64,000 nucleotides of DNA from Sedimentisphaerales bacterium. GTDB lineage: Bacteria > Planctomycetota > Phycisphaerae > Sedimentisphaerales > SM23-30. How positions within the stretch are numbered: position 1 is the stretch's first letter; each line of letters begins with the position of its first letter. Of the stretch, positions 10,639-28,117 are shown piece by piece. The stretch spans positions 224,001 through 288,000 of the forward strand of contig CAXXFK010000001.1 in the NCBI GenBank assembly GCA_963663965.2, read 5' to 3'. Both the position numbers and the translations under genes were made by a program. The notes beneath the pieces are model-generated. The model saw only the letters and a program-made list of their open reading frames with translations. It did not search any database and was not told the DNA's origin.

Positions 10639-10949
10639 ACAAAAAGAATTTAGCATAAGACACATTGCAAAAGACGGTATTTGAAAATCAGAACAATAAC
10701 GCCCAAGGAGGTAATATGGCTGTAACACGCCTATAAATAACCTTGGCGAGATAACGTTTTTCTGCGACCGACTGAAAATTTCAAGATCACAATATCAAGA
10801 TCAAACACTGATGATCCTATCGGGCGAGGTAAAAGTACCAGGCCTGAAGGGGTTGTTGAGTGTGTCTGAATTTCTGGCCGGTTGTTGATAGAACTCAAAT
10901 ATTATGCCGCTATTTTCAAATTGATTCTCTCGATGGGGAGAGTACACTC

Positions 10950-12817: not shown

Positions 12818-12831
12818 AACAAGGCCCGACA

Positions 12832-14565
12832 ATGGATGGTAACCTATCGAGATGTCCTTATTGTTCTTTGATGTGCCCGGTCGCCATCGAACGGCGCGCT
12901 CATGGCGTGACATTGCCGGCATACACAAACCCCGATGAATATTCCGGCGGACACCTGTGTTATCGCGGGCATTACCTGGCTCCCCTGCTCTGTCATCCCA
13001 ATCGCCTGATCGAAGCGACCCTGCAATCCGCCCCGGAACAACAAACGCAATCGGAGATCCATCACCAGGCGGCCCGGAAACTGCAAGAAGCCAGTAGAAA
13101 CAAGACTTTGGGGACACTGATATCGGGTAATCTGCCGGTGGAAGAAATCCACGCCGGCGGTCATTTTTTTCAGTCGATTTTGCCGGCCAGATCGACCAGT
13201 ATTTTTCTACCTCCTGCCGATGAAGCGATGATGCGTCAATTACGCGGTGGCCGGTATAAACCCGGTTTGCCGACCGCACTGGAAAAAGCCGATATCATTC
13301 TGGCCGTTGGCGATGTGCTGGGAACCCATCCGGTACTGGCCGGGCGGTTGATGGATCGGCTGGAAAGCAAGAAGCCCCCGATACTGATTAACCTGGACAG
13401 TATGAAGGGACGCACGATGCGCTTCGCGCGGATTGGACTGACTACCCAAACCGGTATGGAATGCTGGGGCATCGAAGCCCTGTTAACCTTGGTTAACCAT
13501 TCTAAAAAACCTGAGACGAAGGCCTGTTATCATGACGCACTGGCGGTCTGCGAACTGGAGGACGCGGCGGTTAAGGAGGCGGCAGAGGCCATCCGTCCGG
13601 AAAAAGGCAAGACGGTAGTCCTGCTGTTAACGATCCCACAAGGGCATTGCCGCCGTCCAAATGAACTGGCAACGTTAACCGGGCTGCTGGCGCGTACGAT
13701 CAAAGCCACACTGGTTCCATTATTGACCTATGCCAACGCGCCTGGCGCGTTCGCGGTCAGTCATACCCTGGGAACGACCCCACCGGCCCACTGGTTGAAA
13801 CAGGCCATGGATGGATCCTTCACGACCTTGTTTATTGCAGATGTCGATCTGTTCGGGATGTTGCCAAAAAACACCATCCAGACTATTCGCGCGAAAGTCG
13901 AAACCCTCATTACGGCCGCAGCGATGCCCGGACCCACCACTGAACTTTCGGATATTGTGCTGCCTCTGGCATTCGGCTTTGAAATGACCGGGCATTATAT
14001 GAATTGTCAGGGGACATTGATCAAACGTCAACCGCTGGGCATGCCGCCGGGACATGCCGTGGCATTAAGCGCGATGCTGCATCAGATCGACAAGCTATTG
14101 CTCCTGCCAGAAGTCACACGAATGCTCCCTGACGAATTTGCCTTGGAACTGGCTTCGGTTTCGGCGGCAGACCGGACCAAGCCGGAATTGTTGATACCGG
14201 AACCGGCTAATTCCTATACTTTGACGGCGCGTACTGAAACACTGGACCTTTATGAAGGAGCCGTATCCCGTCAGATGGACTGGCCGCTGGGTATCGAACC
14301 GATTCCAGTTGTGCTAATTCATCCGGAAAAGGCGCGGGCATTAAAACTGGCCGGCAATGACCGGATCCTGCTGACTCGAGGCACGCATGAGCAGGAATTT
14401 CTGGTAAGGATCAGCGACGCGGTCTGGCCGGACACGCTGGCTCTATCCGCGACTATACCGGAGACGCGTCATTACTTCCAATGGGAATTGAATGATGATG
14501 GTATCGAAATCACCCCTGTGCCGGTCGAAATCCGGCCGGCGGTTTGCGAGGTGGCCTGTGGCTGA
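12832..14565 (+). CDS. Molybdopterin-oxidoreductase-fold FeS subunit (FdhA/NuoG/FwdB-like), probably lacking a Mo/W ligand
   Basis: N-terminal CPYCSLMC...LCYRG 4Fe-4S motif, SDIVLP..FE..G motif, C-terminal Molydop_binding-like IHPEKA domain; no recognisable Cys/Sec-His active-site motif. Confidence 0.65.
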   Translation: MDGNLSRCPYCSLMCPVAIERRAHGVTLPAYTNPDEYSGGHLCYRGHYLAPLLCHPNRLIEATLQSAPEQQTQSEIHHQAARKLQEASRNKTLGTLISGNLPVEEIHAGGHFFQSILPARSTSIFLPPADEAMMRQLRGGRYKPGLPTALEKADIILAVGDVLGTHPVLAGRLMDRLESKKPPILINLDSMKGRTMRFARIGLTTQTGMECWGIEALLTLVNHSKKPETKACYHDALAVCELEDAAVKEAAEAIRPEKGKTVVLLLTIPQGHCRRPNELATLTGLLARTIKATLVPLLTYANAPGAFAVSHTLGTTPPAHWLKQAMDGSFTTLFIADVDLFGMLPKNTIQTIRAKVETLITAAAMPGPTTELSDIVLPLAFGFEMTGHYMNCQGTLIKRQPLGMPPGHAVALSAMLHQIDKLLLLPEVTRMLPDEFALELASVSAADRTKPELLIPEPANSYTLTARTETLDLYEGAVSRQMDWPLGIEPIPVVLIHPEKARALKLAGNDRILLTRGTHEQEFLVRISDAVWPDTLALSATIPETRHYFQWELNDDGIEITPVPVEIRPAVCEVACG

Positions 14566-15082
14566 ATTATCGACAGTATCAACGGAACCCAAACCTGATC
14601 CAGCTGAACAGGAACGCGTGGTATTGAATCTGGACCGATGTATCGGATGCCGGAGTTGTTCGGCAGCCTGTTTTTACGGGCATCTGGGCATGCCGAATAT
14701 CACCTTTGGGGCACTGGTCGAGGGCACTTTGCCGGTTATCTGCCGTCAGTGTGACGACCCGGCCTGTGAAGAGGCCTGCCCCGTGAACGCATTAAGACGA
14801 GATGACCAAGGCATAACCGCACGCAGCCGGATGCTGTGTATTGGATGTAAAAACTGCGTATTTGCCTGTCCATTTGGTGTTTTGAGCCCCAGCCTGACAT
14901 TAAGGCAAGTAGCCAAATGTGATTATTGTCAAGATTTAGTAGACCAGGAAGAACCGCCCCGCTGTGTTCAGGCCTGTCCGGCGGGAGCATTGAGCTATGT
15001 CAGATATCATGCCGACGAGAAAAAAGCGCCCATACTATTAAGCGGGCGAACGATCGGCAAACACCCTTACAAGAGACGATGA
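14558..15082 (+). CDS. 4x[4Fe-4S] ferredoxin-type subunit (HycB/CooF/HydN-like)
   Basis: CIGCRSCSAAC, CRQCDDPACEEACP, CIGCKNCVFACP, CDYC..CVQACP; GTG 14558 after GAGGT. Confidence 0.88.
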   Translation: MAELSTVSTEPKPDPAEQERVVLNLDRCIGCRSCSAACFYGHLGMPNITFGALVEGTLPVICRQCDDPACEEACPVNALRRDDQGITARSRMLCIGCKNCVFACPFGVLSPSLTLRQVAKCDYCQDLVDQEEPPRCVQACPAGALSYVRYHADEKKAPILLSGRTIGKHPYKRR

Positions 15083-15095
15083 AAGGAACCCGGCC

Positions 15096-16013
15096 ATGAA
15101 TCTGATGGCAATTCCGGCACTGGCCGGCGCGACGATGGGAACGATTGCGATCGGATTTCTATCCAAATGGATCGATCGCAAAGTGACCGCCCGCATTCAG
15201 TGGCGCGTGGGACCGCCCTGGTATCAGCCGCTGGCCGATGTGATTAAACTGATGGGCAAAGAAACTCTCTTGCCCGAGAGCGCGCGTGGCACCGGATTTC
15301 TGATGATGCCGCTGGTTGGGTTTGCGGCGGCTGCGGTAGCCGCAACGATTTTATGGTGGGCTACTTTTAATCCCGGTTCCGGATTTGTGGGCGATACGAT
15401 TGTCGTACTTTATTTACTGACGATTCCGGCCCTGATGACCATTCTGGGCGGGTCGGCCTCGGGTAATCCCCTGGCGGCAGTCGGGGCCGCGCGCGAGATG
15501 AAACTGGCGCTGGCCTATGAATTGCCATTATTGATTTCGGTCCTGGCGGCGGTCATGGCACGGTCCGGAGATTTTCGCCTGGGCGGCCTGATCGAAACGT
15601 CGCCGCAAGGTGTTTTCAGCAGCCTGGCCTGTGTGCTGGGATTCTTAGTGGCGATTTTGTGTATCCAGGCCAAACTGGGATTGGTGCCCTTCGACATTGC
15701 TGAAGCCGATTGTGAAATTGCCACCGGTCCTTTCATTGAGTATTCCGGGGTGGCGCTGGCGATGATTCTGCTGACCCGAACCATTCTGTTCGCCCTGCTG
15801 CCCATCTTCCTGATTACTATTTTCTGGGGTGGTTTGAATTTCTATTCGATAACGGGTGTGCTGGCAACCATCGGCAAATATGTTCTGATTATTGTCTTAA
15901 TGGTATTGATCCGAAATACCAACCCGCGGGTACGTATCGATCAAGCCATGAAATTTTTCTGGTTTGGCATGACGCCGATCGCGCTGATCGCGCTGATGCT
16001 GGCTTTAATATAA
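15096..16013 (+). CDS. Membrane subunit NuoH/HycD/MbhM-like
   Basis: RKVTARIQWRVGPPWYQPLADVIKL, PFDIAEA, EYSG, NPRVRIDQ. Confidence 0.92.
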   Translation: MNLMAIPALAGATMGTIAIGFLSKWIDRKVTARIQWRVGPPWYQPLADVIKLMGKETLLPESARGTGFLMMPLVGFAAAAVAATILWWATFNPGSGFVGDTIVVLYLLTIPALMTILGGSASGNPLAAVGAAREMKLALAYELPLLISVLAAVMARSGDFRLGGLIETSPQGVFSSLACVLGFLVAILCIQAKLGLVPFDIAEADCEIATGPFIEYSGVALAMILLTRTILFALLPIFLITIFWGGLNFYSITGVLATIGKYVLIIVLMVLIRNTNPRVRIDQAMKFFWFGMTPIALIALMLALI

Positions 16014-16027
16014 GGGAGAATTCGAAC

Positions 16028-16477
16028 ATGAATCTGAAAACCTGGGCCCTGAAAAAATCGATCTGGCTCTATCATGCCAATGTGGGCGCCTGTAACAACT
16101 GCGATATCGAAGTGGTCGACTGCCTGACGCCGCGATACGATATCGAGCGATTCGGGATGATGCTGGTAGGCAGTCCCCGTCATGCCGACGCTCTGGTTGT
16201 TACCGGTATCTGCACCATGCAGGCCCGGCCACGGTTGCAGGAACTGTACCAGCAGATGCCCAGACCCTGCCTGGTTTTGTGTATCGGGTCTTGTGCCTGT
16301 TCGGGTGGAATTTTTCGGTCCTGTTATCACTTTGCCGGCCCGGTTGACGAGGCGATCCGCGAGGTGGATCCCGCGGCGATTATCGCTTATGTGCCGGGTT
16401 GTCCACCCAAACCCGAGGCGATTATTGCCGGCGCGGTCAAGGCGCTGGGCGCTATTCCGGATGAAGCGATCGCGTAA
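16028..16477 (+). CDS. Group 4 [NiFe]-hydrogenase small subunit (HycG/NuoB/MbhJ-like)
   Basis: ACNNCDIE, SPRHAD, GSCACSGG, PGCPP. Confidence 0.93.
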   Translation: MNLKTWALKKSIWLYHANVGACNNCDIEVVDCLTPRYDIERFGMMLVGSPRHADALVVTGICTMQARPRLQELYQQMPRPCLVLCIGSCACSGGIFRSCYHFAGPVDEAIREVDPAAIIAYVPGCPPKPEAIIAGAVKALGAIPDEAIA

Positions 16478-16489
16478 AGGAAGTCTGTT

Positions 16490-16993
16490 ATGAATAATAA
16501 TGAGTTATTGAAAATGATTGAACAGAAACTGGGAGAAATATCCGAATCGATAACCGTCCGCAAAAGCCGGCGCATCTATATCGATGTGCCGCCGGAGTTC
16601 AGTCTGCAAGCGAACCGGATTTTATTTGCAGAGTTACAGGCCAGACTGGCCACCGCCACCGGCATGGATACTCCTGACCGCATCGAGGTATTGTACCATT
16701 ACTGCTTTGATTCTTCAGGCGTTGTTGTGTCAATTCGTACCTGGGCGCTCAAACCGGAGTGTGTGCTGGATTCTGTCGCGACGCTATTCCCGGGAGCCAA
16801 CTTTATCGAACGGGAAATCCAGGACCTGCTGGGGGTACGTTTTGAAAATCATCCCGATCCGCGCCGGCTCCTGCTGGCGGATAACTGGCCTGAAGGCAAA
16901 TATCCGCTCCGCCGCGATCAGGCCCTGCGGCGCGAACGGACCGAAACTCCTGAATTAAAACGACAGGCTTGTACAAAGGCGACCACACCATGA
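16490..16993 (+). CDS. NuoC/MbhK-like 30 kDa-family subunit
   Basis: EREIQDLLGVRFENHPDPRRLLLADNWPEGKYPLR. Confidence 0.9.
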   Translation: MNNNELLKMIEQKLGEISESITVRKSRRIYIDVPPEFSLQANRILFAELQARLATATGMDTPDRIEVLYHYCFDSSGVVVSIRTWALKPECVLDSVATLFPGANFIEREIQDLLGVRFENHPDPRRLLLADNWPEGKYPLRRDQALRRERTETPELKRQACTKATTP

Positions 16994-18174
16994 AAAAAAC
17001 CATCATACCGATCGGGCCCTTTCATCCGATTCAGGAAGAACCGGAATTTTTCCAGCTGACGGTGGAAGGCGAGACGGTGGTCGATGTTGACGTACGGCTT
17101 TCCTACAACCACCGGGGGATCGAGCGGCTCTGTCAGGATCTGACCTACGATCAGATTCCTTTTTTACTGGCCCGGATCTGCGGTATCTGTTCGGCGAGCC
17201 ATCCAATGGCGTTTTGTCAGGCGTGCGAAGATCTCTGCGGCGTGGAAGTTCCCATACGCGGACGGCATTTGCGCACCATCATCTGCGAAATGGAACGGAT
17301 CCACAGTCACCTGCTCTGGGCGGGATTGGCGGGTCACTTTATTGGATACAATACCGTGTTCATGTGGGCCTGGAAATATCGTGAACCGGTGCTCGAATTG
17401 TTTGAACGGCTGCTGGGCAACCGCAACCATTACGAAAACTTTTGTGTGGGCGGCTGCCGGCGCGATATCCCGCAGGAACATATGCCGGATATTCTCAAGA
17501 TGGCGGATGAACTGGAAGGACCGGTGGAAATGCTGACCCAGGCCGTACTGGATGATCCCGTATTAAAAGCGCGGTTGGGCGGCATCGGCGTCTTGACCTA
17601 TGAACAAGCCCGGCAATGGTGCACCACCGGCCCAACCGCGCGCGGGTCCGGGTACGATATCGATGTCCGGCGGGATGAGCCATACGCTTCTTATGATCTG
17701 CTGGACTGGCAGGTTTATACCCAGCCGGCCGGTGATGTCTTTGCCAAGGCCGTTGTTCGACTCCTGGAGGTTCTGGAGGCGATCCGGATTATCCGTCAGA
17801 CTGTTGCTCAGATCGAGCCGGGCGACATCCGCGCTGAAGTGCTGGAGATGCCGGAAGGTGAAGGCATCGGTCATGCCGAAGCGCCGCGTGGTGAGACCTT
17901 TCACTACGTCTGCTCGGATGGTTCCAATTATCCTCAACGCTATAAAGTACGCGCGCCCACTTATGTCAACCTGCCCAGTTTTAAGGCCTGTGTGGTGGGC
18001 CAGGAACTGGCAGACGCCATGTTGAGTGTGGCGGCGATGGATCCCTGTTACAGTTGTACCGAACGGGTGGCAGTGGTAAGGCCGCGACAAGGTCATCGTA
18101 AAGAGCGGTTCGACCAGAAAGCGTTAATAAAAATGAGCTGGGATAAAACCCGGCGTATCATGCAAAATGTATAA
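16990..18174 (+). CDS. Group 4 [NiFe]-hydrogenase large subunit
   Basis: GPFHP, L1 RICGICSASH, EAPRGE, L2 DPCYSCTER followed by a probable cleavable C-terminal tail. Confidence 0.95.
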   Translation: MKKTIIPIGPFHPIQEEPEFFQLTVEGETVVDVDVRLSYNHRGIERLCQDLTYDQIPFLLARICGICSASHPMAFCQACEDLCGVEVPIRGRHLRTIICEMERIHSHLLWAGLAGHFIGYNTVFMWAWKYREPVLELFERLLGNRNHYENFCVGGCRRDIPQEHMPDILKMADELEGPVEMLTQAVLDDPVLKARLGGIGVLTYEQARQWCTTGPTARGSGYDIDVRRDEPYASYDLLDWQVYTQPAGDVFAKAVVRLLEVLEAIRIIRQTVAQIEPGDIRAEVLEMPEGEGIGHAEAPRGETFHYVCSDGSNYPQRYKVRAPTYVNLPSFKACVVGQELADAMLSVAAMDPCYSCTERVAVVRPRQGHRKERFDQKALIKMSWDKTRRIMQNV

Positions 18175-18193
18175 CAGGTTACTGGATAACCAC

Positions 18194-18257
18194 TGACTTG
18201 AATTGTCAGACATCAAGTCAAGGCCTGGCATTTTCTGATCGCCAATCCGATCAGAAA
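18194..18257 (+). other. Two intergenic stem-loops between the catalytic and antiporter modules
   Basis: TGACTTGA-N11-TCAAGTCA (18194-18220); TTTCTGATCG-N6-CGATCAGAAA (18232-18257) overlapping the AAAGGA SD. Confidence 0.7.
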
Positions 18258-18268
18258 GGATATCGGCA

Positions 18269-20149
18269 ATGAATGAAACGACATTGATCTGGATGTTAAT
18301 AATCCCCAGCATCGCCGGCCTGCTGGCGTATCTCTGGCCGCGCCAGGGACAGCCGGTCGTACGACTGCTGGCGCTGGTGGCGACGGCAATGCTGGTTTTC
18401 CTGGCGATTATCCCGATTTATCATTCGGACTGGCAATGGCAATGGACCTGGCTGCGAACGGGTCAACTCGCTATCGGTATCGACCTGACGGCCAGACCTT
18501 TCGCAAGTGTGATAAGTTTGATGATCGCCCTATTCGGTTTTCTGATTACCCTTTACGACGTCGCTTATCTCCGGGGAGCAATCGGTCGTCATTATGCCTA
18601 TATGCTCTGGACCCTGGCCGGTGCTATTGGTGCGGCGCTGGCGAATGACCTTATTTTTCTACTATTCTGCTGGGAAATTACTACCCTGATGCTTTTCCTG
18701 CTGATCAATCAATCCGGGCCTCAGGCGCGTACCGGGGCGGCCAAAACCCTGGCCATGCTGGGTTTCAGCGATTGCGCGCTACTGCTGGGTATTGGTTTGA
18801 TCATCACACGGCCGGATATGAGCTCGCCGGCGATCGATCAAATCCACCTGAGTACCAATACGCCGCTGATGGCCATCTGTTACCTGCTCTTTATGATCGC
18901 GGGGCTGGCCAAGGCCGGCGCGATGCCGTTTCATACCTGGATTCCTACTGCCGCGGAGGCGACGACCTGCGATGTGATGGCGCTTCTGCCCGCAGCGCTG
19001 GATAAACTGCTGGGGATCTACCTGCTGGCACGGGCCTCACTCGAACTGTTTGTTCTGACTGACGGATTGAAGATGCTGCTCATGATTATCGGTGCGGTAA
19101 CAATTATTGGCGCGGTAATGATGGCAATGGTCCAGCATGACTTAAAGAAACTGCTTTCGTTTCATGCGGTCAGTCAGGTCGGTTATATGGTGCTGGGAAT
19201 CGGAACCGGCAGTGTTCTGGGTATCGCCGGTGGGTTGTTTCATATGTTCAACAACGCGATCTATAAAAGTTGCCTGTTTCTGACGGCCGGCGCAGTGGAA
19301 AAGCAGGCGGGCACGACCCACCTCGACCGGTTGGGCGGGCTGGCCCGAACCATGCCATTGACTTTTACGGCCTGTCTGCTGGCCGCATTGGCTATTTCCG
19401 GGGTGCCGCCCATGAATGGATTCAGCTCCAAATGGATGATCTACCAGGCCGTACTGGATGTGCCTTCACGCTGGGCGCCGATCCTGACGGCGGCGGCCAT
19501 CTTTGGCAGCGCCCTGACCCTGGCGAGTTTTGTCAAGGTACTGCACAGTGTCTTTTTGAGCGTGCCCGCACCGGACCAGGCCCCGGCAGTCGAGGGCGAA
19601 GTATCGGGTTGGATGACGGTACCAATGCTGGCGCTGGGCGTAACCTGTATTGTATTTGGAATCTGGGTGGCGCTGCCGCTGGGCGCGTTGATCATCCCGT
19701 CGATGACATCGATGGGGCAGGCCGGTACTGACACCATTCTACAGGCCAACCAGATCGATGCGGCGGCCCGGTTGTGGAATCCGGGACTGGCGACTTTGCT
19801 GCTGCTGGGGGGGCTGCTTATGGGGCTGATTATCTATTTCCTGGGCAAAGGTTTCAAAGTACGCCGGACCCGCACTTATATTGGCGGCGAAAAGATCACT
19901 CCTGAGCTGGTTCATTACAATGGTACCGGCTTCTATACCACCCTGCGAAACCTGCCCGGTATTCACGCCCTTTATCGCGACGCAGAGCGCCAGGTCTTTG
20001 ATATCTATCACCTGACCGGACGACTGGGCCATACCCTGGTCGAAGGCCTGCGCCGAACCCAGACGGGTATTCTATCGCTGTATATCAGTTGGGTCATTTT
20101 AGGGCTGGTGGTGATATTAATCTGTTTTATCAAGCTCCACAGCGGATAA
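18269..20149 (+). CDS. Antiporter-like membrane subunit (MrpA/NuoL/HyfB-like)
   Basis: CWE, KAGAMPFHTWIP, DLKKLLSFHAVSQVGY, GVPPMNGFSSKW; C-terminal QTG..YI lateral-helix-like end. Confidence 0.9.
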   Translation: MNETTLIWMLIIPSIAGLLAYLWPRQGQPVVRLLALVATAMLVFLAIIPIYHSDWQWQWTWLRTGQLAIGIDLTARPFASVISLMIALFGFLITLYDVAYLRGAIGRHYAYMLWTLAGAIGAALANDLIFLLFCWEITTLMLFLLINQSGPQARTGAAKTLAMLGFSDCALLLGIGLIITRPDMSSPAIDQIHLSTNTPLMAICYLLFMIAGLAKAGAMPFHTWIPTAAEATTCDVMALLPAALDKLLGIYLLARASLELFVLTDGLKMLLMIIGAVTIIGAVMMAMVQHDLKKLLSFHAVSQVGYMVLGIGTGSVLGIAGGLFHMFNNAIYKSCLFLTAGAVEKQAGTTHLDRLGGLARTMPLTFTACLLAALAISGVPPMNGFSSKWMIYQAVLDVPSRWAPILTAAAIFGSALTLASFVKVLHSVFLSVPAPDQAPAVEGEVSGWMTVPMLALGVTCIVFGIWVALPLGALIIPSMTSMGQAGTDTILQANQIDAAARLWNPGLATLLLLGGLLMGLIIYFLGKGFKVRRTRTYIGGEKITPELVHYNGTGFYTTLRNLPGIHALYRDAERQVFDIYHLTGRLGHTLVEGLRRTQTGILSLYISWVILGLVVILICFIKLHSG

Positions 20150-20167
20150 CTTCCCAGGGAGAATATT

Positions 20168-20692
20168 ATGTATCCATTTATCATTGTGTTAACACTGTTT
20201 CTCATGCTGGCGGCGTTTGTGGCGATTGAAGCCAAGGGATTGCTTTCCACAGTCGTTTCAGTAGGGGCGGCCGGACTGGCGCTGGCGGTGATTTTCATGC
20301 TGCTGGGTGCGCCCGATCTGGCCATTACGCAAGTTGTCGTTGAGGTCCTCTGCCTGGTATTATTGATCCGGGCGGCGGTGATGCGGGAAGATTCAACCTT
20401 TGGCACACCGCAGAGCAGCTTTGTACTGGCGGCTGGATTGATCGGAGGGGGCATATTTCTAACGCTGGTCTATTTTGCTTTACAGACCTTGACGCCGTTT
20501 GGAACCCCGCTGATGAATCTGTCGGAAGGCTATCTGCAAAATGGTTTAACACAGACTGGTGCAGTCAATTATGTCATGGCCATCCTGCTGGATTACCGCG
20601 CTTATGATACCCTGGGGGAAGCCACGGTGATTTTTGCCTCGATTATCGGTGTTTACGCCGTGATGCGACGGCTCGGGAGGAAGAAATCATGA
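20168..20692 (+). CDS. DUF4040 + MbhE-like fused subunit (MrpA C-terminal part)
   Basis: APDLAITQVVVE and AILLDYRAYDTLGEATV. Confidence 0.88.
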   Translation: MYPFIIVLTLFLMLAAFVAIEAKGLLSTVVSVGAAGLALAVIFMLLGAPDLAITQVVVEVLCLVLLIRAAVMREDSTFGTPQSSFVLAAGLIGGGIFLTLVYFALQTLTPFGTPLMNLSEGYLQNGLTQTGAVNYVMAILLDYRAYDTLGEATVIFASIIGVYAVMRRLGRKKS

Positions 20693-21138
20693 AAGGAATG
20701 ACGCTTATCGTTAAAGAAGTGACCAACCTGGTTATCGGATTTATTTTGCTGTTTTCGATCTATCTGGTGTTATACGGCCATCTTTCGCCCGGCGGTGGAT
20801 TTGTGGGCGGGGTCATGCTGAGTTGCGGCCTGATCCTGCTGATCCTGGCGCACGGCAAGGAAACGTTCAATACCCTGATCGATGACCGAGCCATGACCCT
20901 GTGGGATTGTATCGGAGCACTGCTGTTTCTGGTCCTGGCTTTGCTGGGGTATAGCGCCGGTATATTTTTCGCCAATATTTTTTCGGCCTGGGGCAGACCG
21001 TTCACCCTGGTCAGTGGCGGGACAATACCTCTGGCCAATATTGCCATTGGCATTAAAGTCGGTGCGTGTCTGGCCGGGGCCTTTATCGCGCTGGTGGTGA
21101 CGGGCAAAGCCAAACAATCGCTATCCGGAGATCTGTAA
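20689..21138 (+). CDS. MrpB/MnhB-like subunit
   Basis: GHLSPGGGFVGG; NIAIGIKV. Confidence 0.9.
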   Translation: MKGMTLIVKEVTNLVIGFILLFSIYLVLYGHLSPGGGFVGGVMLSCGLILLILAHGKETFNTLIDDRAMTLWDCIGALLFLVLALLGYSAGIFFANIFSAWGRPFTLVSGGTIPLANIAIGIKVGACLAGAFIALVVTGKAKQSLSGDL

Positions 21139-21140
21139 TC

Positions 21141-21503
21141 ATGAACACTGGAATGATACCTTACTTTCTTGCCATGCTGGTTATCGGGATCGGTCTGTAC
21201 GCGATCATCGCCAAAAAGAACATTATCAAAATCATCGTCGGGTTGATCATTCTCGACTACGGCGCCAATCTGTTTTTGATATTATGCGGGTATCGTCATG
21301 AGGGCATTGCCCCGATCCGGACACCGGATATGGCCGCGGATTCATTTGTCGCCACATCGGTCGATCCGGTGCCACAGGCATTGATTCTAACCTCGATCGT
21401 GATCGGTTTGGGACTGGTAGCCCTGATGGCGGCAATTGCCATACGAATTTATGAAAAATACCGAACCTTCGATATTACCCGGATTCGCCAGTTGAAGGGA
21501 TAA
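21141..21503 (+). CDS. MrpC/MnhC-like subunit
   Basis: DPVPQALILTSIVIG; ATG 21141 after GGAG. Confidence 0.92.
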   Translation: MNTGMIPYFLAMLVIGIGLYAIIAKKNIIKIIVGLIILDYGANLFLILCGYRHEGIAPIRTPDMAADSFVATSVDPVPQALILTSIVIGLGLVALMAAIAIRIYEKYRTFDITRIRQLKG

Positions 21504-21508
21504 TTATT

Positions 21509-23035
21509 ATGAATGCTATTCTGCCTTTGTTTGTTGTGATTCCGCTGGCGCTGGCTTTTATTCTGCCGTTGCTTGAGAAGCGCTCATACGGTTCGTTCCT
21601 GAGCCGGGCACTCGCCGTGCTGGCTTCAATAGTCCTGCTGATTCTGGCCGTCAGCCTGCTGTTCAGCCCATCTTCGATCAGTTGGATCGGAGGGTGGTCG
21701 CCTTCCAAAGGTTCGATAGGAATCAGTATGGTGCTGGATCCGCTCAGCGCCATGATGATGGTGATCGTTACGGTGGTTGCCCTGGCCGCGACACTCTATT
21801 CGCTGAATTACATGAAACGCTTTACCTCAGAACCACTCTTCTACTGCCTGTTCTTTCTGATGATCGCCGGTATTCATGGCGTTGTCCTGACGGGCGATAT
21901 TTTCAATCTGTATGTCTTCCTGGAAGTCGCCGCCATCGCCAGCTATTCGCTGGTGGCATTCGGATGCGAAATGGAGGAGTTGGAGGCCTCTTTCAAGTAC
22001 CTGGTGCTGGGATCGATCGGCTCAATCTTTATCTTTCTGGGGATCGGAATTATTTATAACCAGACCGGACATCTCAACTTGCAGTTCATTCGCGCCAATT
22101 TGCCGCCTGACAATGGCGCGGTTATGATCGCGGCGGCCTTTTTCCTGACCGGTTTCAGTCTCAAAGCCGCCATGGTGCCGTTTCACGCCTGGCTGCCGGA
22201 CGCCCATCCATCGGCGCCGGCCCCCATCTCTGCCATGCTGTCGGGGATACTCATCAAAGCCCTGGGAGTTTATACCATGATCCGGGTCTTCTTTACGACC
22301 ATGATCCTTAATCGCGAACTGGTCTGGGTACTGATCACCCTGGGGGCAGTCAGCATGGTGATCGGGGTTTTTCTGGCCGTGGGACAATGGGATTTCAAAC
22401 GGTTGTTGGCTTATCATTCGATCAGCCAGATGGGCTATGTCGTTCTCAGTCTGGGCGTGGCCGGTGAGATGCTGCTGAACAATAATTGTACGGTCGCGTC
22501 ATTGGCTTTGCTGGGCGGATTGTTTCACATGGCCAACCATGCCACCTTCAAATCATTGCTGTTTCTCTGTTCCGGCGCAGCGGAGTATGCGACTGGAGTA
22601 CGTCAGCTCAAACTGCTGGGCGGTTTAAAATATCGCATGCCGGTTACTGGCGCCTGCCTGCGTATCGGGGCCTTGAGCATTTCGGGAATCCCGCCCTTTA
22701 ACGGATTCTGGAGCAAACTGATTATTGTAATCGCCGTCCTCCAGGCCGGGCATCCACTACTGGGCGCCATGACCGTACTGGTCAGTTTTATGACACTCCT
22801 GTCATTTATCAAAGTACAGCGCTATATTCTCGATGGCGAACCCTCCGAACGAGTTACTCAGGCCCGTGAAGTGCCGGTTGGTATGCAACTGGCAATGGTC
22901 TTACTGGCAGTGATCTGCCTGGGGGCGGGTTTGTTATTGCCTGTTTACAAAGACATCTTTTTCGAAAACGCCGGTCGGATCGTGACAGACTCCATAACGA
23001 GTACGATTCAACTTCTGGCTGGAAGCGGAGGCTAA
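21509..23035 (+). CDS. MrpD/MnhD/MbhH-like antiporter subunit
   Basis: GDIFNLYVFLEV, KAAMVPFHAWLPDAHPSAP, KRLLAYHSISQMGY. Confidence 0.93.
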   Translation: MNAILPLFVVIPLALAFILPLLEKRSYGSFLSRALAVLASIVLLILAVSLLFSPSSISWIGGWSPSKGSIGISMVLDPLSAMMMVIVTVVALAATLYSLNYMKRFTSEPLFYCLFFLMIAGIHGVVLTGDIFNLYVFLEVAAIASYSLVAFGCEMEELEASFKYLVLGSIGSIFIFLGIGIIYNQTGHLNLQFIRANLPPDNGAVMIAAAFFLTGFSLKAAMVPFHAWLPDAHPSAPAPISAMLSGILIKALGVYTMIRVFFTTMILNRELVWVLITLGAVSMVIGVFLAVGQWDFKRLLAYHSISQMGYVVLSLGVAGEMLLNNNCTVASLALLGGLFHMANHATFKSLLFLCSGAAEYATGVRQLKLLGGLKYRMPVTGACLRIGALSISGIPPFNGFWSKLIIVIAVLQAGHPLLGAMTVLVSFMTLLSFIKVQRYILDGEPSERVTQAREVPVGMQLAMVLLAVICLGAGLLLPVYKDIFFENAGRIVTDSITSTIQLLAGSGG

Positions 23036-23038
23036 GCG

Positions 23039-23524
23039 ATGAAATACCTGGCTTCGTTTATTATGTTGTTACTGCTCTGGCTGATACTGGCTAATCCGGA
23101 TTCAGCCTGGGAGTGGCTTACCGGCGCGGCAGTGGCATTGCTACTCTCTGTTGTGTTAGGGCGGCTCTATCGCCCTGTTCCAATCGCCATCCTCGATCCG
23201 GTACGCTGGCTCTGGTTTGTAGTGTATGCTCTCTATTTCATTTACTACTGTATCCGCGCCAATCTGGATGTGGCCTATCGGGCGCTGCATCCGGATATGC
23301 CGATTCGTCCCGGGATTGTCAAAGTCCAGACCCGATTAAAAAGCGATATTGCCAAAACCTTCCTGGCCAACTCGATTACTCTGACGCCCGGCACACTCAC
23401 CATAGACATCATGGGCAACTCGCTGTTCATACACTGGATCAATATCGTCACTGACGACCCGGACGGGCAAACGGATATTATTGTCAGACGTTTCGAAACC
23501 CTTTTGGAAAGGATCTTCGAATGA
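23039..23524 (+). CDS. MrpE/MnhE-like subunit
   Basis: ANSITLTPGTLT. Confidence 0.93.
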   Translation: MKYLASFIMLLLLWLILANPDSAWEWLTGAAVALLLSVVLGRLYRPVPIAILDPVRWLWFVVYALYFIYYCIRANLDVAYRALHPDMPIRPGIVKVQTRLKSDIAKTFLANSITLTPGTLTIDIMGNSLFIHWINIVTDDPDGQTDIIVRRFETLLERIFE

Positions 23525-23778
23525 TTACCATAGGAATGTGGATACTGATCATCGCCAGTTTTCTGTGCCTTTACCGGATAGCCGCGGGGCCAACCGCGCC
23601 GGACCGCACAGTTGCCATCGATATACTCGGTACCCTGATGATCGGCTTTGTCTGTCTGTTCGCTCTGCTGCACAAGCAGGATTTTTATATGAATATCGCG
23701 CTGGCCTGGGCCCTGCTCAGTTTTATCGGATCCATTGCCCTGGCCAAATATCTGGAAGGCAGGCATTTCCATGAATGA
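23521..23778 (+). CDS. MrpF/MnhF-like subunit
   Basis: GPTAPDRTVAID; FIGSIALAKYL. Confidence 0.92.
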   Translation: MITIGMWILIIASFLCLYRIAAGPTAPDRTVAIDILGTLMIGFVCLFALLHKQDFYMNIALAWALLSFIGSIALAKYLEGRHFHE

Positions 23779-24121
23779 GTTGATTGGATCCATCCTGATT
23801 GGAATCGGACTGGCTTTTGACCTGGTCGGCGTCATTGGCCTGGTTCGCTTCCCTGATATCTACAATCGGTTACAGGCCGCCACCAAATGTGTTACACTAG
23901 GCACCGCCACCCTGTTGCTGGGTGTGGCCGTTTATGACGGTGGTTTTGCCCTGGGCGCCAAGGCTTTGCTCTGTGCCGTTTTCATTCTGCTCACCTCGCC
24001 CGTCGGGGCACACGCCATTGCCCGGGGCGCACATATTTCCGGCATCCGGCTTTGGGAGGGCAGCGTCTGCGACCGTTACCGGGAGGTACCCAAACAGGAG
24101 TCTGGCCATGAAGAAGCCTAA
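23771..24121 (+). CDS. MrpG/MnhG-like subunit
   Basis: RFPDIYNRLQAATKCVTLG; SPVGAHAIARGA. Confidence 0.92.
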   Translation: MNELIGSILIGIGLAFDLVGVIGLVRFPDIYNRLQAATKCVTLGTATLLLGVAVYDGGFALGAKALLCAVFILLTSPVGAHAIARGAHISGIRLWEGSVCDRYREVPKQESGHEEA

Positions 24122-24725
24122 ACTGCGAGAACTCGGCGAAGCCATTCGCTCACTGCTGAGTCCGGCTTTTACCACGCGATTTCCAGCTGTTCCAGCGCCG
24201 GCCCCGCCGGCTTATCGGGGTAAAGGCAAGTTCCACGATGAACAGTGTATTGGCTGCGGCGCCTGTGCCGAGGTCTGCCCGGCCGACGCTATCGAAGTGA
24301 TCGATAATATCACTGATGATACACCAATGCGTACCTTGATACGGCATGATGATATCTGCATTTTCTGTGGCCAGTGTCAGTCTTTATGTACAACGGAACA
24401 AGGCATTGAATGCACACCCGAATACGAACTGTCCACCTTTGATCGTGCCACTTGTGCGGTATCGGTGCAAAAAGAGCTGGTTTTATGCCGGCTCTGCGGC
24501 GAGACGATAACCACCAAAGACCACCTCCGCTGGCTGGCGGATAAACTGGGCACCAAACGTTACGCCAATCCAACTCTGATACTGATTAAAGAAGCACAAC
24601 TCGGGTTGCTTCCGCCGGAAACCGCGCCGCCACCGCGTCCTCATGAACCGGATCGGGGTGATACCATGCAGGTTTTATGTCCGCATTGCCGACGACAGGT
24701 CATTTTAAAGGAGATTTGGGGATGA
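24108..24725 (+). CDS. NuoI/HycF/MbhN-like 2x[4Fe-4S] subunit with extra C-terminal Cys pairs
   Basis: CIGCGACAEVCP, CIFCGQCQSLC, plus CRLC..CPHC; ATG 24108 after AGGAG. Confidence 0.88.
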   Translation: MKKPKLRELGEAIRSLLSPAFTTRFPAVPAPAPPAYRGKGKFHDEQCIGCGACAEVCPADAIEVIDNITDDTPMRTLIRHDDICIFCGQCQSLCTTEQGIECTPEYELSTFDRATCAVSVQKELVLCRLCGETITTKDHLRWLADKLGTKRYANPTLILIKEAQLGLLPPETAPPPRPHEPDRGDTMQVLCPHCRRQVILKEIWG

Positions 24726-25261
24726 CCATTCATGATATGCTTGCCCGGAACCTTGACAAAGAATCGCTCATTCTGGGGGTGGGCAACCGCCTTTTTGGCG
24801 ATGATGCTTTTGGACCGGCTGTCATCGACGGCCTGCGTGACCGGACATCGCTGGCATTGCTCAACGGAGGCATTGCCCCGGAAAATCTCTTCGGGCCCAT
24901 CTCCCGCCTGGCGCCTACCCGTGTCATTATCGCCGATGCCGTTTCGCTAAATGCTCCCTTTGGCAGCCTGCACTGGCTCGAACCGGATGAGCTGGATGGC
25001 GCCGCCATTTCTACCCACGGCCCGCCGCTTGACCTGGTGGTGGCGATTATTACGCAGTATATCAAAGCCCGGGTACATATCATCGGAGTGGTGCCCGCGA
25101 CTCTCGGGTTAAATCAGGCCATGTCACCGGAAGTGCAAAAAGCTACCCAAACGGTCGTTGCCTCCATCGCCGATCTGTTTCCGGCCGATCCCTCAGTCAT
25201 ACAATCGCTTGATTCCGACCCAATTTCGCACCGGACTCACAGGCGTACCGAACCCAAATAA
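24722..25261 (+). CDS. Hydrogenase maturation endopeptidase (HycI-like)
   Basis: GVGNRLFGDDAFGP, APEN, IIADA, ISTH. Confidence 0.9.
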   Translation: MTIHDMLARNLDKESLILGVGNRLFGDDAFGPAVIDGLRDRTSLALLNGGIAPENLFGPISRLAPTRVIIADAVSLNAPFGSLHWLEPDELDGAAISTHGPPLDLVVAIITQYIKARVHIIGVVPATLGLNQAMSPEVQKATQTVVASIADLFPADPSVIQSLDSDPISHRTHRRTEPK

Positions 25262-25279
25262 CCTGATCAACAACATTAC

Positions 25280-27712
25280 TCAGCCGATTAAGGTATCGTA
25301 GGGCCACATTTCCAGCCCCCCTTCCAGCACCCGTACCTGATCAAAACCGGCCGCATCCAGAATCAGGGAGGCTTCATACGCGCGCAAACCGGAATTACAA
25401 AGCGTAACAATCAATTTGTTACCATCCAATTCGTTGGCTCGTTCACGTAACACACCCAGGGGGATATTCCGGACATAAGGCAGATGATTATGTTCCACTT
25501 CCATGGCGGTTCGCACATCAAGCAGAATCATATCCGCCCCTGAGCGGATCAGGTCGTATAGCTCCGCAGCCCCAATTCCTTTTAAATAGCCATCCAGCTT
25601 ATTGCACGCGATATTGGTGGCTGTAATCAGGTTATCCATGACCGGTGAAAAACTGGGCGCGTAACAAAGATCCAGATTACTCATGTCATCGACAGTCATA
25701 TGATTGGTAATTGCCAGCGCCGCCAAATTGACCCGGGCAACCGCGCTACCAGGCCCCACCGCCTGGGCGCCCAGCAAACGACGGCTGGCTTTATCAACCA
25801 CCAGTTTCAGTTTAATAGTAGCCGCTCCGGGCGCGAAATGTTCACGATCCGGCGCCGGATTTAATACGGTGATAGTATCATAGCCCCGCTCGCGGGCCTC
25901 CCGTTCGGTAAATCCGGTCCGAGCGATCTCGTAGTCGAACACCTTACAGCCGATACTGCCAATCACGCCCCGATAGGCCTTATCGCCGCCACAGACATTG
26001 ACAGCCACTACACGCCCCTGCTTATTGGCCGTTGAACCCAGTGGGATATGACAGCCCTGACCGCTGATCAGATGAATGGATTCGACACAGTCACCTGCGG
26101 CAAAAATATCCGGATCGGAGGTCCGAAGTTGTGCGTCCACTTTGATCCCCCCGGTCTTACCGAGTTCCAATCCGGCCTGGCGCGCCAATTCGGAATTGGG
26201 GCGTACCCCGGTCGATAAGATCACCATATCCGCCGGGAGAATCCCCCGACTGGTAGCCACCGCTTCAACCTGATCGCCGCCGATCAGCCGTTTTGTTTCG
26301 GTTTGGGTCAGAACTTTAACGCCATGCGCTTCCAGATAATTCTCCACCAGACGGGCAATCTGGTCATCCAGTATCCTCAGGATCTGAGACCGTTTCTCGA
26401 CGATACTGACCCGGCAGCCTTTACGCGCCAGCGCTTCTGTCACTTCGATTCCTACCAGGCCGCCCCCTAAAATAACGACATCGTGGGCCCGGCCGCGCTC
26501 CAACTCGGTCTTGATCCCTTCAGCGTCGGCGACACCCCACAAAGTAAATACATTGCGCAAACGCAATCCTTCGATATCCGGCATGACCGGCCGGGCGCCG
26601 GTGGCCAGAACCAGTTTATCATAATCCAGCCAGGTCTCTTTTTTGCTGACGTAATCACGCACCAGGATTCGTTTATGAGCGCGGTCAATCTCCAACGCCT
26701 CGGTCTGATTCATGATATGAACGTTCTTGACTTTCTGAAAGAAAACCGGGTCGCGAACGATACCCGCTGAAGAACTCATTAATTCGTATTGGTTTTTTAC
26801 TTCACCTGAAATGTAATATGGCAGACCGCAGCCGGCATAAGAAAGTAACTTCCCTTTTTCGATAATCGTCACGTCCGCTTCCGGAATCAGGCGGATAATC
26901 TTGGCGGCCACCTTGGGACCAGCAGCCACCCCGCCGACGATAATCACTTTCAATCGTTGTGCCATGGGCATATCCCCACTTTTCTGGATATGAGAGGGTT
27001 TTATTACGGGAAATTGTATAATGAATTCTGCCCCACCATAACGTGAACGGTCCACCTCGATCGTTCCACCCGCCGCATCGATTACTGCCTTCACAAAAGC
27101 CAGCCCCAGCCCAGAACCTGTGCGGGCAGCATTACTGCTGGATTGCGACCGGAAAAAAGGCATCAGTACCAGATCTCGCTCGGATTCAGCAATACCCGGC
27201 CCGGAATCTCCCACACGCAAACGAATGCGTTCGGAGGATTCAGTGTATTCGACAACGACATCGATATGGCCATGATCCGGTGTGTACTTTAACGCATTGT
27301 TAATCAGCGCTTCGATGGCCTCGATCAGCGCTGGTTCGTGGCTTTTTACCCAATCCTGTCCGGACATGGTGTTGTTATGTAGATTCAAATGGATGTGATG
27401 GCTTCTGGCAAGATCGTGATAACGGCCGGCGGCCTGTTCAACTGCCTTTACCAGGCTGGTATTGCCACGCAGGCTGTCGGGATTATGAATGGCCCGTGCG
27501 ATAGACAGCAATTGCTGGGCAGTCTGGATCGATTCATCGCAACGAAGTATGGCCTTTTCCAATAATTCTTTTTGTTTCGGGGTTAAAGGCCCGGCAAATT
27601 CACCCAATAGAACTTTTAGCAGACTGGCCACTGCGCTGACCGGTGTTTTTAATTGATGCGCGATCACAGCGGCATATTGCATCGGATCGGTTGGATCGAA
27701 TCGGGTTCCCAT
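25280..27712 (-). CDS. Fusion: histidine kinase (HisKA-HATPase) + CoA-disulfide reductase/NADH oxidase-like flavoprotein + rhodanese
   Basis: AHQLKTP, NNALKYT, DSGPGI, GSGLGL; then GGVAAG, SYAGCGLPY, LVLATGA, GGGLVG, IFAAGDC, YAPSFS; then LDVRT..CNSGLRA..LEGG, all in one uninterrupted frame. Confidence 0.88.
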   Translation of the reverse strand: MGTRFDPTDPMQYAAVIAHQLKTPVSAVASLLKVLLGEFAGPLTPKQKELLEKAILRCDESIQTAQQLLSIARAIHNPDSLRGNTSLVKAVEQAAGRYHDLARSHHIHLNLHNNTMSGQDWVKSHEPALIEAIEALINNALKYTPDHGHIDVVVEYTESSERIRLRVGDSGPGIAESERDLVLMPFFRSQSSSNAARTGSGLGLAFVKAVIDAAGGTIEVDRSRYGGAEFIIQFPVIKPSHIQKSGDMPMAQRLKVIIVGGVAAGPKVAAKIIRLIPEADVTIIEKGKLLSYAGCGLPYYISGEVKNQYELMSSSAGIVRDPVFFQKVKNVHIMNQTEALEIDRAHKRILVRDYVSKKETWLDYDKLVLATGARPVMPDIEGLRLRNVFTLWGVADAEGIKTELERGRAHDVVILGGGLVGIEVTEALARKGCRVSIVEKRSQILRILDDQIARLVENYLEAHGVKVLTQTETKRLIGGDQVEAVATSRGILPADMVILSTGVRPNSELARQAGLELGKTGGIKVDAQLRTSDPDIFAAGDCVESIHLISGQGCHIPLGSTANKQGRVVAVNVCGGDKAYRGVIGSIGCKVFDYEIARTGFTEREARERGYDTITVLNPAPDREHFAPGAATIKLKLVVDKASRRLLGAQAVGPGSAVARVNLAALAITNHMTVDDMSNLDLCYAPSFSPVMDNLITATNIACNKLDGYLKGIGAAELYDLIRSGADMILLDVRTAMEVEHNHLPYVRNIPLGVLRERANELDGNKLIVTLCNSGLRAYEASLILDAAGFDQVRVLEGGLEMWPYDTLIG

Positions 27713-27796
27713 TTTAAACTGACGTTATTGCTCCATTTGATTAAATACTATCTTAATTTCCAGATCAACGTATTTCAATCTTTTTCCTCTTTTTAA

Positions 27797-27826
27797 TATA
27801 CACAGTGTTTTTTATTTTGTTGACAA
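27797..27826. repeat. Left copy of a 30-bp inverted repeat flanking the Y1 transposase
   Basis: TATACACAGTGTTTTTTATTTTGTTGACAA; its reverse complement matches 29160-29189 at 27/30 positions. Confidence 0.85.
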
Positions 27827-28117
27827 AATAAAAAGCTATGCGTTTTTGTTCAAAATGAATACCGACTTTCCCGTCTATCTGGCTAATTCTGCTATTTTAA
27901 CTGTTATGATTTATATGCTTCTATAATTAAGCCTCATAGTAAAAGCAGCATAATGGATCAATATTAATGCCTTTAGTGATATTTATTGATGTCTATGTTT
28001 CAACAGAGCTTGTTAAAGATACGTATCATCTAAATTCTTTTCAAATCTACCATAGATTCAAATACTAAGAATAATCTGGTTAATCCATATATTATAAATT
28101 GCGTATATTACGACTGA

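What the first reader, a model, noticed from the sequence alone, without database searches (positions are those of the whole stretch)
25280..27712. Sensorless histidine kinase fused to a CoA-disulfide reductase-rhodanese: candidate persulfide/redox-sensing kinase
Seen: one 810-aa frame begins almost immediately with the H-box (AHQLKTP) and has N, G1 and G2 boxes but no TM, PAS or GAF input. It continues into a full pyridine-nucleotide disulfide reductase (redox Cys in SYAGCGLPY) and a rhodanese domain that keeps its Cys (CNSGLRA). Known: CoADR-rhodanese (Npsr-type) proteins are NAD(P)H-dependent persulfide/polysulfide reductases and normally stand alone. Inference: the enzyme part may be the C-terminal sensory input, linking NADH/CoA-persulfide/S0 status to phosphosignalling. 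It sits tail-to-tail with the hydrogenase operon, recalling the H2-versus-sulfur switch known in Thermococcales. No response regulator lies in the window.
Basis: partly seen in the sequence, partly recalled or inferred. Interest (0 to 1): 0.78.

Follow-up and report, generated by a model that had tools for sequence, protein, structure and literature searches.

The report
Kinase fused to persulfide-reductase flavoenzyme
One gene, conserved in hundreds of sequences from several bacterial phyla, joins a signalling kinase core with no ordinary sensor to a complete NADH-type sulfur-reducing flavoenzyme that likely serves as its redox sensor, and many copies carry a hidden internal start predicted to make the enzyme alone as a second product.

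Summary
Confirmed. The 810-aa frame joins HisKA and HATPase_c to an Archaeoglobus-Npsr-like reductase with rhodanese. It is no artefact: two searches listed 240 distinct fused proteins (Phycisphaerae-centred and Spirochaetota-centred clades), and 27 sampled fused reductases fall in one clade. This scan noted the fusion before on other DNA.

Three refinements:
(1) The kinase is atypical. His19 is almost invariant, but the next residue is Gln, not the usual catalytic acid (238 of 238). That kills CrdS autokinase, although active PhoQ also lacks it.
(2) In this clade the linker DNA often holds a Shine-Dalgarno plus ATG/GTG/TTG (17 of 20 such starts, against 57 of 1999 controls). This predicts a reductase-only second product; the window's own site is weaker.
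(3) The persulfide/S0 reading is too narrow. The rhodanese Cys is lost in the second clade. Among genomes the gene tracks an NAD-linked Hox hydrogenase operon with a lone receiver (15/18 vs 4/42), not the adjacent group-4 hydrogenase (5/18 vs 10/42).

Best reading: an NADH/oxidant-gated kinase-phosphatase acting on lone receivers of hydrogenase operons (0.45). Coupling, activity and partner are untested. I found no paper on it.

The parts
25280..27712 (-). Whole gene, 810 aa: HisKA-HATPase_c-linker-Npsr-type reductase-rhodanese
   Evidence: AlphaFold2 mean pLDDT 94.1, pTM 0.75
27491..27676 (-). DHp (HisKA) domain, residues 13-74; His19 at 27656-27658, Gln20 (H+1) at 27653-27655, Thr23 (H+4), Cys58 at 27539-27541
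   Evidence: Pfam; H19 and Q20 120/120, C58 117/120 in this clade; H 117/118, Q 118/118, no Cys58 in the second clade
27005..27337 (-). ATP-binding (HATPase_c) domain, residues 126-236; Glu131 (N-8), Ala135 (N-4, usually Asn), Asn139, G1 and G2 boxes
   Evidence: E131, N139, D169, G171, G173, G199, G201, G203 each 120/120, Ala at 135 in 110/120
26951..27004 (-). Linker, residues 237-254; predicted disordered at 241-248
   Evidence: pLDDT under 50 at 241-248; 18-25 residues between anchors and poorly conserved in this clade
26963..26977 (-). Candidate internal translation start: SD-like GGGGAT (26977-26972) and in-frame ATG Met250 (26965-26963; Met248 at 26971-26969); would give a 561-aa reductase-rhodanese
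   Evidence: sequence; family signal; window's own site -5.5 kcal/mol, equalled or beaten by 5 of 76 control windows in the same gene; product not observed
25634..26950 (-). FAD/NADH pyridine-nucleotide disulfide reductase with dimerisation domain, residues 255-693; redox Cys295 at 26828-26830; Glu439 (NADH-selecting position); AfNpsr-type loop near 313-321
   Evidence: Foldseek 6PFZ 43% identity, rmsd 1.4, TM 0.97 on target; PMC7969121
25304..25570 (-). Rhodanese domain, residues 715-803; Cys772 at 25397-25399
   Evidence: Cys in 93 of 116; Ser in 113 of 117 in the second clade
10860..25261 (+). Neighbouring operon: AsrA/AsrB-like subunits, group-4-type [NiFe]-hydrogenase (large subunit 16969-18174 with RxCGxC and DPCxxC), Mrp-like subunits, HycI protease; converges on the gene
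   Evidence: a neighbour here and in some relatives, not correlated at genome level

Best explanation
The gene encodes one protein with a sensorless histidine-kinase core fused to a complete Npsr-type flavoenzyme, and the enzyme's NADH-versus-oxidant state likely sets the kinase/phosphatase balance towards lone receiver proteins of NAD-linked hydrogenase operons. Shown: the architecture, its conservation, intact FAD/NADH/Cys295 and ATP-binding motifs, the almost invariant His, the Gln at H+1, the gene associations. Inferred steps: (a) NADH reduces FAD and Cys295 (with bound CoA); persulfide, polysulfide or O2 re-oxidise them, as in AfNpsr. (b) Both halves are homodimeric folds, so the redox state of the enzyme dimer would be passed to the DHp bundle; in this clade the conserved DHp Cys58 could be the thiol target. 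(c) Without an acidic H+1 the autokinase is probably weak, or uses Glu131 (the position is also Glu in PhoQ), so the output may lean to phosphatase. (d) The best target candidate in this genome is the single-domain receiver at the end of the Hox operon (G000:C1:4532-4903). (e) In many members of this clade an internal start would also make free reductase, so most enzyme does housekeeping while a kinase-bearing fraction reports on it.
For: Fusion kept in 120 of 120 listed hits (116 are 789-839 aa) and 120 of 120, with no sequence shared between the sets. 27 of 27 sampled fused reductases sit in one clade (SH-like 96, with 2 unfused rows inside). Kinase part only 43% identical to relatives of this clade, yet His and ATP boxes 120/120. 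Only a short leader before the His (median 16 and 21 residues, maximum 52 and 42). Of 9 close short hits, 7 run on into the reductase. Neighbours within up to 8 kb among 41 non-redundant loci (many contigs shorter): hydrogenase-cluster genes 10, Rex 5, lone receivers 6. Genome co-occurrence with the Hox receiver 15/18 vs 4/42; within the window's family 7/8 vs 2/16; class-wide 10/15 vs 19/285. PhoQ is an active kinase with Ser at H+1 and Glu at N-8. The genome has a separate canonical CoADR-rhodanese-TusA-DsrE gene for sulfur detoxification. Internal start.
Against: No activity, expression or binding data. CrdS E372Q has no autokinase activity (PMC3510030), and DrBphP, which lacks both the H+1 acid and the N-box Asn as this clade does, is a pure phosphatase (PMC8292422). 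H+4 is Thr here but mostly Ser/Gly in relatives, so the canonical phosphatase residue is not conserved either. Glu131 and Cys58 are absent from the second clade, and Gln-H+1 with acidic N-8 is only a weak trend in unfused kinases (4/17 vs 14/164, p 0.07). The linker is predicted disordered and variable in this clade. The Hox receiver occurs without the fusion in 19 of 29 class genomes, and the fusion without it in 5 of 15, so they are not an exclusive pair; kin are not independent. Most loci (about three quarters of 41) show no hydrogenase neighbour.
Confidence: 0.45

Rival explanations
1. Uncoupled fusion: the reductase works as an ordinary NADH-dependent persulfide/O2-detoxifying enzyme and the kinase-like part is only tethered to it (co-expression, scaffolding or an ATP-binding pseudokinase), with no redox control of phosphosignalling.
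For: Disordered, variable linker in this clade; reductase more conserved than the kinase (62% vs 43% to the query); non-acidic H+1 throughout; an internal start would free the enzyme; no conserved adjacent regulator in most loci.
Against: His and all ATP boxes stay nearly invariant across two clades whose kinase parts are only about 30% identical; linker length fixed at 18 in 116 of 120 proteins of the second clade; kinase-only forms are rare (2 of 9 close short hits, 1 truncated locus).
Confidence: 0.25
2. Reverse direction: the enzyme is the output. The DHp His takes phosphate back from a phosphorylated receiver (or the module binds ATP or a receiver) and this switches NADH-consuming reductase activity, so that it does not compete with NAD-linked hydrogenase.
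For: His kept while the autokinase base is lost; lone receivers and a separate GAF kinase sit next to the gene in L050/L063; both the enzyme and Hox use NADH.
Against: ATP-lid and G boxes are invariant, more than a phospho-acceptor alone needs; a free short isoform would escape such control; I recall no precedent.
Confidence: 0.18
3. One reading: a persulfide/S0 sensor that switches off the adjacent group-4 membrane hydrogenase when sulfur is present, as in the Thermococcales H2/S0 switch.
For: Tail-to-tail position here; a group-4-type or AsrAB cluster, with Rex, also neighbours the gene in L049, L050, L052, L167; the closest characterised enzyme prefers per/polysulfides (PMC7969121); C772 present here.
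Against: No genome-level co-occurrence with this hydrogenase (5/18 vs 10/42, p 0.75); rhodanese Cys lost in most of the second clade; where a regulator lies beside the group-4 cluster it is Rex, an NADH/NAD+ sensor; no DNA-binding response regulator recurs next to the gene.
Confidence: 0.11
4. Assembly error or recent stop-codon loss between two genes.
For: An SD-like site and ATG lie in the junction, as a formerly separate gene would have.
Against: 240 distinct fused proteins listed; one clade; fourfold-degenerate sites 36% identical among SD-bearing members, i.e. near saturation.
Confidence: 0.01

Closest known systems
Archaeoglobus fulgidus NADH-dependent persulfide reductase AfNpsr (PDB 6PFZ; PMC7969121)
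   Same: Best solved relative (phmmer E 1e-139; Foldseek 43% identity, rmsd 1.4); redox Cys, rhodanese Cys, NADH-selecting Glu and the extra loop over CoA all align
   Different: Stand-alone 551 aa; no kinase. Activity of the fused enzyme untested
CoADR-RHD / Npsr / CoAPR of Bacillus anthracis (3ICR), Shewanella loihica (3NTA), Enterococcus faecalis (8A56)
   Same: Same reductase-plus-rhodanese fold
   Different: 32-34% identity; lack the AfNpsr loop (stated for the Bacillus and Shewanella enzymes in PMC7969121); no kinase. The genome's canonical paralogue is a different gene
HisKA-family sensor kinases (HK853, WalK/VicK, CpxA, CrdS)
   Same: DHp and HATPase_c with H, N, G1, F and G2 boxes
   Different: No N-terminal sensor; Gln at H+1 and Ala at N-4, where 48 of 51 and 47 of 51 kinases of this genome have E/D and Asn; enzyme fused C-terminally
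PhoQ, TctE-annotated kinases and DrBphP (non-acidic H+1)
   Same: PhoQ has Ser at H+1 and Glu at N-8 and is an active kinase; TctE-annotated proteins have HQ with Asp/Glu at N-8; DrBphP lacks the H+1 acid and N-box Asn and is a phosphatase
   Different: All have ordinary sensor domains; PhoQ and the TctE-like proteins keep the N-4 Asn
Enzyme-coupled or redox-sensing systems: HupUV-HupT / HoxBC-HoxJ, ArcB, RegB, NreB, Rex, SurR, CstR/SqrR (all recalled, not looked up)
   Same: An enzyme or redox centre reports H2, quinone, O2, NADH or sulfane-sulfur state to a regulator
   Different: None is a pyridine-nucleotide disulfide reductase fused to a kinase; SurR, Rex and CstR/SqrR are one-component transcription factors
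Genes with nested in-frame starts, such as CheA long/short, IF2, ClpB (recalled)
   Same: One frame, two N-termini
   Different: Here the short product would be a whole metabolic enzyme lacking the signalling half; predicted from DNA only

Membership tests
HisKA histidine kinase | DHp domain with phospho-acceptor His | tested here: met
   PF00512 29 bits over cut-off 26.9; His 120/120 and 117/118
HisKA histidine kinase | HATPase_c with N, G1, F, G2 boxes | tested here: met
   PF02518 E 9e-21; box residues 120/120 in both clades
HisKA histidine kinase | Acidic H+1 general base and its N-4 Asn partner | tested here: not met
   Gln20 and Ala135; requirement from PMC3510030, PMC3904827, PMC8292422; PhoQ is an exception for H+1
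HisKA histidine kinase | Thr/Asn at H+4 for phosphatase activity | tested here: inconclusive
   Thr23 here, but Ser 55, Gly 46, Ala 10 of 120 in this clade and Ser 102 of 118 in the second
HisKA histidine kinase | Autophosphorylation and transfer to a cognate receiver | not testable with these tools
   candidate receiver from co-occurrence only
Npsr / CoADR-RHD | FAD and NADH Rossmann motifs, single redox Cys, dimerisation domain | tested here: met
   (C295 120/120; G260, G416, G421, E439 120/120)
Npsr / CoADR-RHD | C-terminal rhodanese with sulfur-accepting Cys | tested here: met
   C772 aligns with AfNpsr C519; not family-wide (93/116 and 4/117)
Npsr / CoADR-RHD | NADH-dependent per/polysulfide reduction with bound CoA | not testable with these tools
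   inferred from AfNpsr (PMC7969121)
CoA-disulfide reductase equivalog (TIGR03385, PRK09564) | Score over the curated cut-off | tested here: not met
   398 vs 578.8 and 390 vs 458 bits
Thermococcales SurR-type H2/S0 switch | Regulator tied to the membrane-bound hydrogenase it controls | tested here: inconclusive
   neighbour in the window and four other loci of 41 but no genome-level association; SurR itself is a one-component factor (recalled)

The most novel reading that the evidence does not exclude
A two-product gene: an internal start makes bulk NADH-persulfide/O2 reductase, while the full-length form makes a kinase-bearing version that uses the enzyme's catalytic redox centre as its sensor and, through a non-canonical active site (His-Gln with an N-box Glu) and a DHp cysteine, phosphorylates or dephosphorylates the lone receiver of NAD-linked hydrogenase. 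That would be a two-component sensor whose input is a working metabolic flavoenzyme, with sensor-to-enzyme ratio set by translation.
Probability: 0.25. Interest if true: 0.86.

Novelty: new variant of a known kind. Interest (0 to 1): 0.68.

Why it matters
Two-component sensors of the NADH pool or of sulfane sulfur are poorly known; the described sensors I recall are one-component factors or Fe-S/quinone kinases. A soluble protein that carries both the redox enzyme and the kinase can be tested in one tube, and a cultured carrier exists (Anaerobaca lacustris, WP_349243171.1). It also tests whether a His-Gln kinase can autophosphorylate, proposes a partner for the unexplained receiver in Hox operons, and gives a clear case for a conserved nested start. 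Databases name these proteins 'FAD-dependent oxidoreductase', so the kinase half is easily overlooked.

Tried and rejected
Complex prediction of the kinase dimer (10-236, two copies) with the reductase (254-799): no answer, score 0.00, controls not folded; not used for or against. Sequencing runs: no RNA holder listed. Lost N-terminal sensor: rejected (upstream stop, short leaders family-wide). Glu131 as a general compensating base: not supported family-wide or by covariation in unfused kinases (p 0.07; that sample is biased by the search pattern). Leaderless full-length mRNA: TAnnnT just before the start in 11 of 38 loci against 29 of 304 control windows (3 loci without a suitable ATG dropped); suggestive for a subset only. 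Promoter and terminator scans at chance level. No Rfam family in 10000-30000. Rex-box pattern: 3 matches, 2.9 expected. Single-protein scan of genome contigs gave one fused relative among 19 loci. The careful tree did not finish; its quick tree was used. The 905-aa neighbour in L062 proved a molybdopterin (formate-dehydrogenase-like) protein, not a hydrogenase, and is not counted. Proteins longer than about 1400 aa were not searched, so longer fusions are not excluded.
Full report
OBSERVATION. The frame at window 27712-25280 (-) is open for 810 codons. A stop lies four codons before the ATG (814-aa open frame), so nothing precedes the kinase. Pfam gives HisKA 13-74, HATPase_c 126-236, Pyr_redox_2 255-549, Pyr_redox_dim 589-693 and Rhodanese 715-803. 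The gene converges, 18 bp apart, on an operon of AsrA/B-like subunits, a group-4-type [NiFe]-hydrogenase (intact RxCGxC and DPCxxC, HycI protease) and Mrp-like subunits. No receiver domain lies in the window; the genome has 71 matches elsewhere. AlphaFold2 on a 135-row alignment (92 fused, 28 unfused reductases, 15 unfused kinases) folds all domains confidently, with only residues 241-248 under pLDDT 50.

A FAMILY, NOT AN ARTEFACT. With residues 1-300 as query, all 120 listed hits (the best 120 of 4978, query included) carry both HATPase_c and the reductase; 116 are 789-839 aa. Named ones are mostly Sedimentisphaerales/Phycisphaerae, plus Krumholzibacteria and the cultured Anaerobaca lacustris, so the window's organism is probably of that group (inference). 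The search of 50% clusters found more distant fused forms. One of them (P0130) returned a second set of 120 fused proteins, named Spirochaetota and Chitinivibrionales, sharing no sequence with the first. In a FastTree tree of 89 reductase domains all 27 fused rows form one clade (SH-like 96) that also holds two unfused rows, so one old fusion is the simplest reading. Among proteins under 445 aa, 9 are close relatives: 7 run on into the reductase and 2 end after the kinase. One locus has a stop after the kinase (L165) and one a frameshift in the reductase (L042). The gene is patchy: 18 of 60 relatives (one further hit at 29% identity, G003, dropped as distant) and 16 of 300 class genomes, one truncated (only 9 candidates scored per genome).

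THE ENZYME HALF. The closest solved structure is A. fulgidus Npsr. I read parts 1-3 of 4 of PMC7969121 (supplements not opened): the enzyme reduces per- and polysulfides and O2 with NADH only, and not CoA-disulfide. Its redox Cys, NADH-selecting Glu183, loop 60-66 and rhodanese Cys519 align with C295, E439, residues near 313-321 and C772. C295 is 120/120 and 117/120 in the two sets, but the rhodanese Cys is 93/116 and 4/117. The constant element is therefore the flavin-Cys centre, not the persulfide shuttle. The protein is under the CoA-disulfide reductase cut-offs. The genome has a separate canonical CoADR-rhodanese-TusA-DsrE gene, 34% identical.

THE KINASE HALF. His19 and the N, G1 and G2 boxes are almost invariant. 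H+1 is Gln in 120/120 and 118/118; the one exception seen is P0141, with Glu. In this genome 48 of 51 kinases have E/D there. Passages of PMC3904827, PMC3510030 and PMC8292422 show that the acid is the general base, that CrdS E372Q loses kinase but keeps phosphatase activity, and that DrBphP, lacking both the acid and the N-box Asn, is a phosphatase. This clade also lacks that Asn (Ala 110/120) and has Glu131 at N-8 in 120/120. Against a dead kinase: E. coli PhoQ has Ser at H+1 and Glu at N-8 and is described as autophosphorylating His277 (passages of PMC8719878), and His-Gln occurs in 17 of 184 unfused kinases sampled (biased sample). The second clade keeps the Asn and has no Glu at N-8, and the covariation is weak (p 0.07), so Glu131 as substitute base is only a hypothesis. 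A DHp cysteine (C58, 117/120) is specific to this clade. Whether the output is kinase, phosphatase or both is open.

A NESTED START. The linker of this clade often reads G-D/E-x-x-M. On DNA this is GGAGA, 7 bases, then a start codon. Of 49 loci with a readable linker, 30 have a start with anti-SD pairing of -6 kcal/mol or better, against 150 of 3617 ten-codon windows elsewhere in the same genes. After removing near-duplicates (90% identity) it is 23 of 41 against 119 of 3056. Counted without selecting on SD strength, 20 of 41 have ATG/GTG/TTG four or five codons before the reductase's first strand, and 17 of these 20 have GGAG 12 bases upstream, against 57 of 1999 other in-frame start-type codons. 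The codon switches among ATG, GTG and TTG with the SD kept. Fourfold-degenerate sites among 17 carriers are only 36% identical, and carriers lie on several deep branches of the quick tree, so the site is more likely selected than a relic. The organism has a normal anti-SD tail and uses SD starts (663 of 1874 ORF-start windows vs 80 of 1191 internal). Against: the window is one of the three exceptions (GGGGAT, -5.5; 5 of 76 control windows as strong); 18 of 41 loci lack a strong site; the second clade has Met in only 11 of 120 linkers (its DNA was not examined); a pausing role for the SD-like stretch cannot be excluded; no product has been seen.

CONTEXT. There is no fixed operon. Among 41 non-redundant loci (up to 8 kb each side, often less), 10 have hydrogenase-cluster genes: group-4/AsrAB/Mrp type in the window, L049, L050, L052, L167; Hox type in L046, L072, L162; Mvh type in L159; HypD in L040. 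Five have Rex and six a lone receiver. The receiver beside the gene in L046, L072 and L162 is 62-71% identical to one that ends this genome's Hox operon about 245 kb away on the same contig. Across 60 relatives that receiver, which travels with HoxH, is in 15 of 18 genomes with the fusion and 4 of 42 without. The window's group-4 hydrogenase is in 5 of 18 and 10 of 42. Class-wide the receiver is in 10 of 15 and 19 of 285 (one weak 41% hit dropped), so it often exists without the fusion. Kin are not independent and many genomes are incomplete; the association may reflect a shared lifestyle rather than a pair.

MECHANISM. I commit to a redox-gated kinase-phosphatase whose sensor is the enzyme's flavin-Cys centre, reading NADH against persulfide or O2, and whose likely targets are lone receivers of NAD-linked hydrogenase operons (0.45). 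Rivals: an uncoupled tether (0.25), the enzyme as output (0.18), the narrower S0 switch on the group-4 hydrogenase (0.11), artefact (0.01). Architecture, motifs and associations are shown; coupling, catalytic activity, partner and short isoform are inferred.

NOVELTY. Searches for the combination found no paper on it: (0 papers; 2 listings; 4 listings), whose titles and abstract openings concern other subjects; these and the listings not named above were seen as search listings only. The library lacks most subscription papers. Four earlier notes of this scan describe the same fusion on other DNA; a word search for the internal start found none. Both halves are known families, so I rate it a new variant of a known kind, with interest 0.68.

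Noticed in passing
L170:4529-10167 (G000:C1): Hox-type NAD-linked hydrogenase operon (fused NuoE/F-like diaphorase, HoxU, Y, H, protease-like gene) ending in a single-domain receiver conserved at 54-76% in about 29 of 300 class genomes; its kinase is unknown.
   Followed up: partly
window 10860-25261: Group-4-type [NiFe]-hydrogenase with Mrp-like subunits, preceded by AsrA/AsrB-like NAD(P)H subunits and a NuoG-like protein; in relatives the same cluster lies next to Rex (L049, L050, L052, L167).
   Followed up: partly
window 10586-10603: Rex-operator-like stretch with 3 mismatches upstream of the hydrogenase operon; the number of such matches is at chance level. A Rex homologue is on contig C41.
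   Followed up: partly
L169:5779-8250 (G000:C38): Canonical CoADR-rhodanese-TusA-DsrE fusion, 823 aa, divergent from genes that look like Nqr/Rnf subunits (read by eye).
   Followed up: partly
window 28092-29069: Broken-looking IS200/Y1 transposase just upstream of the gene (Pfam E 3e-06 over 45 residues, then low-complexity); an apparently intact relative lies at L170:3460-4404, next to the Hox receiver.
   Followed up: no
window 27800-27843: 21-nt inverted repeat centred on TTGTCAACAA upstream of the gene; pieces of it match other contigs of the runs. Probably an ordinary promoter element.
   Followed up: partly
window 29256-30521: Soluble PAS-SpoIIE (PP2C) phosphatase 1.5 kb upstream; a related gene is also near the fusion in L156.
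   Followed up: no
window 42931-45009: Second orphan kinase in the window, membrane-bound with Cache-like repeats and no receiver nearby.
   Followed up: no
L080-L124 and P0289-P0375: His-Gln H-boxes occur in many unfused kinases (TctE-annotated and others; 17 of 184 sampled), a class whose catalytic mechanism I found no paper on.
   Followed up: partly
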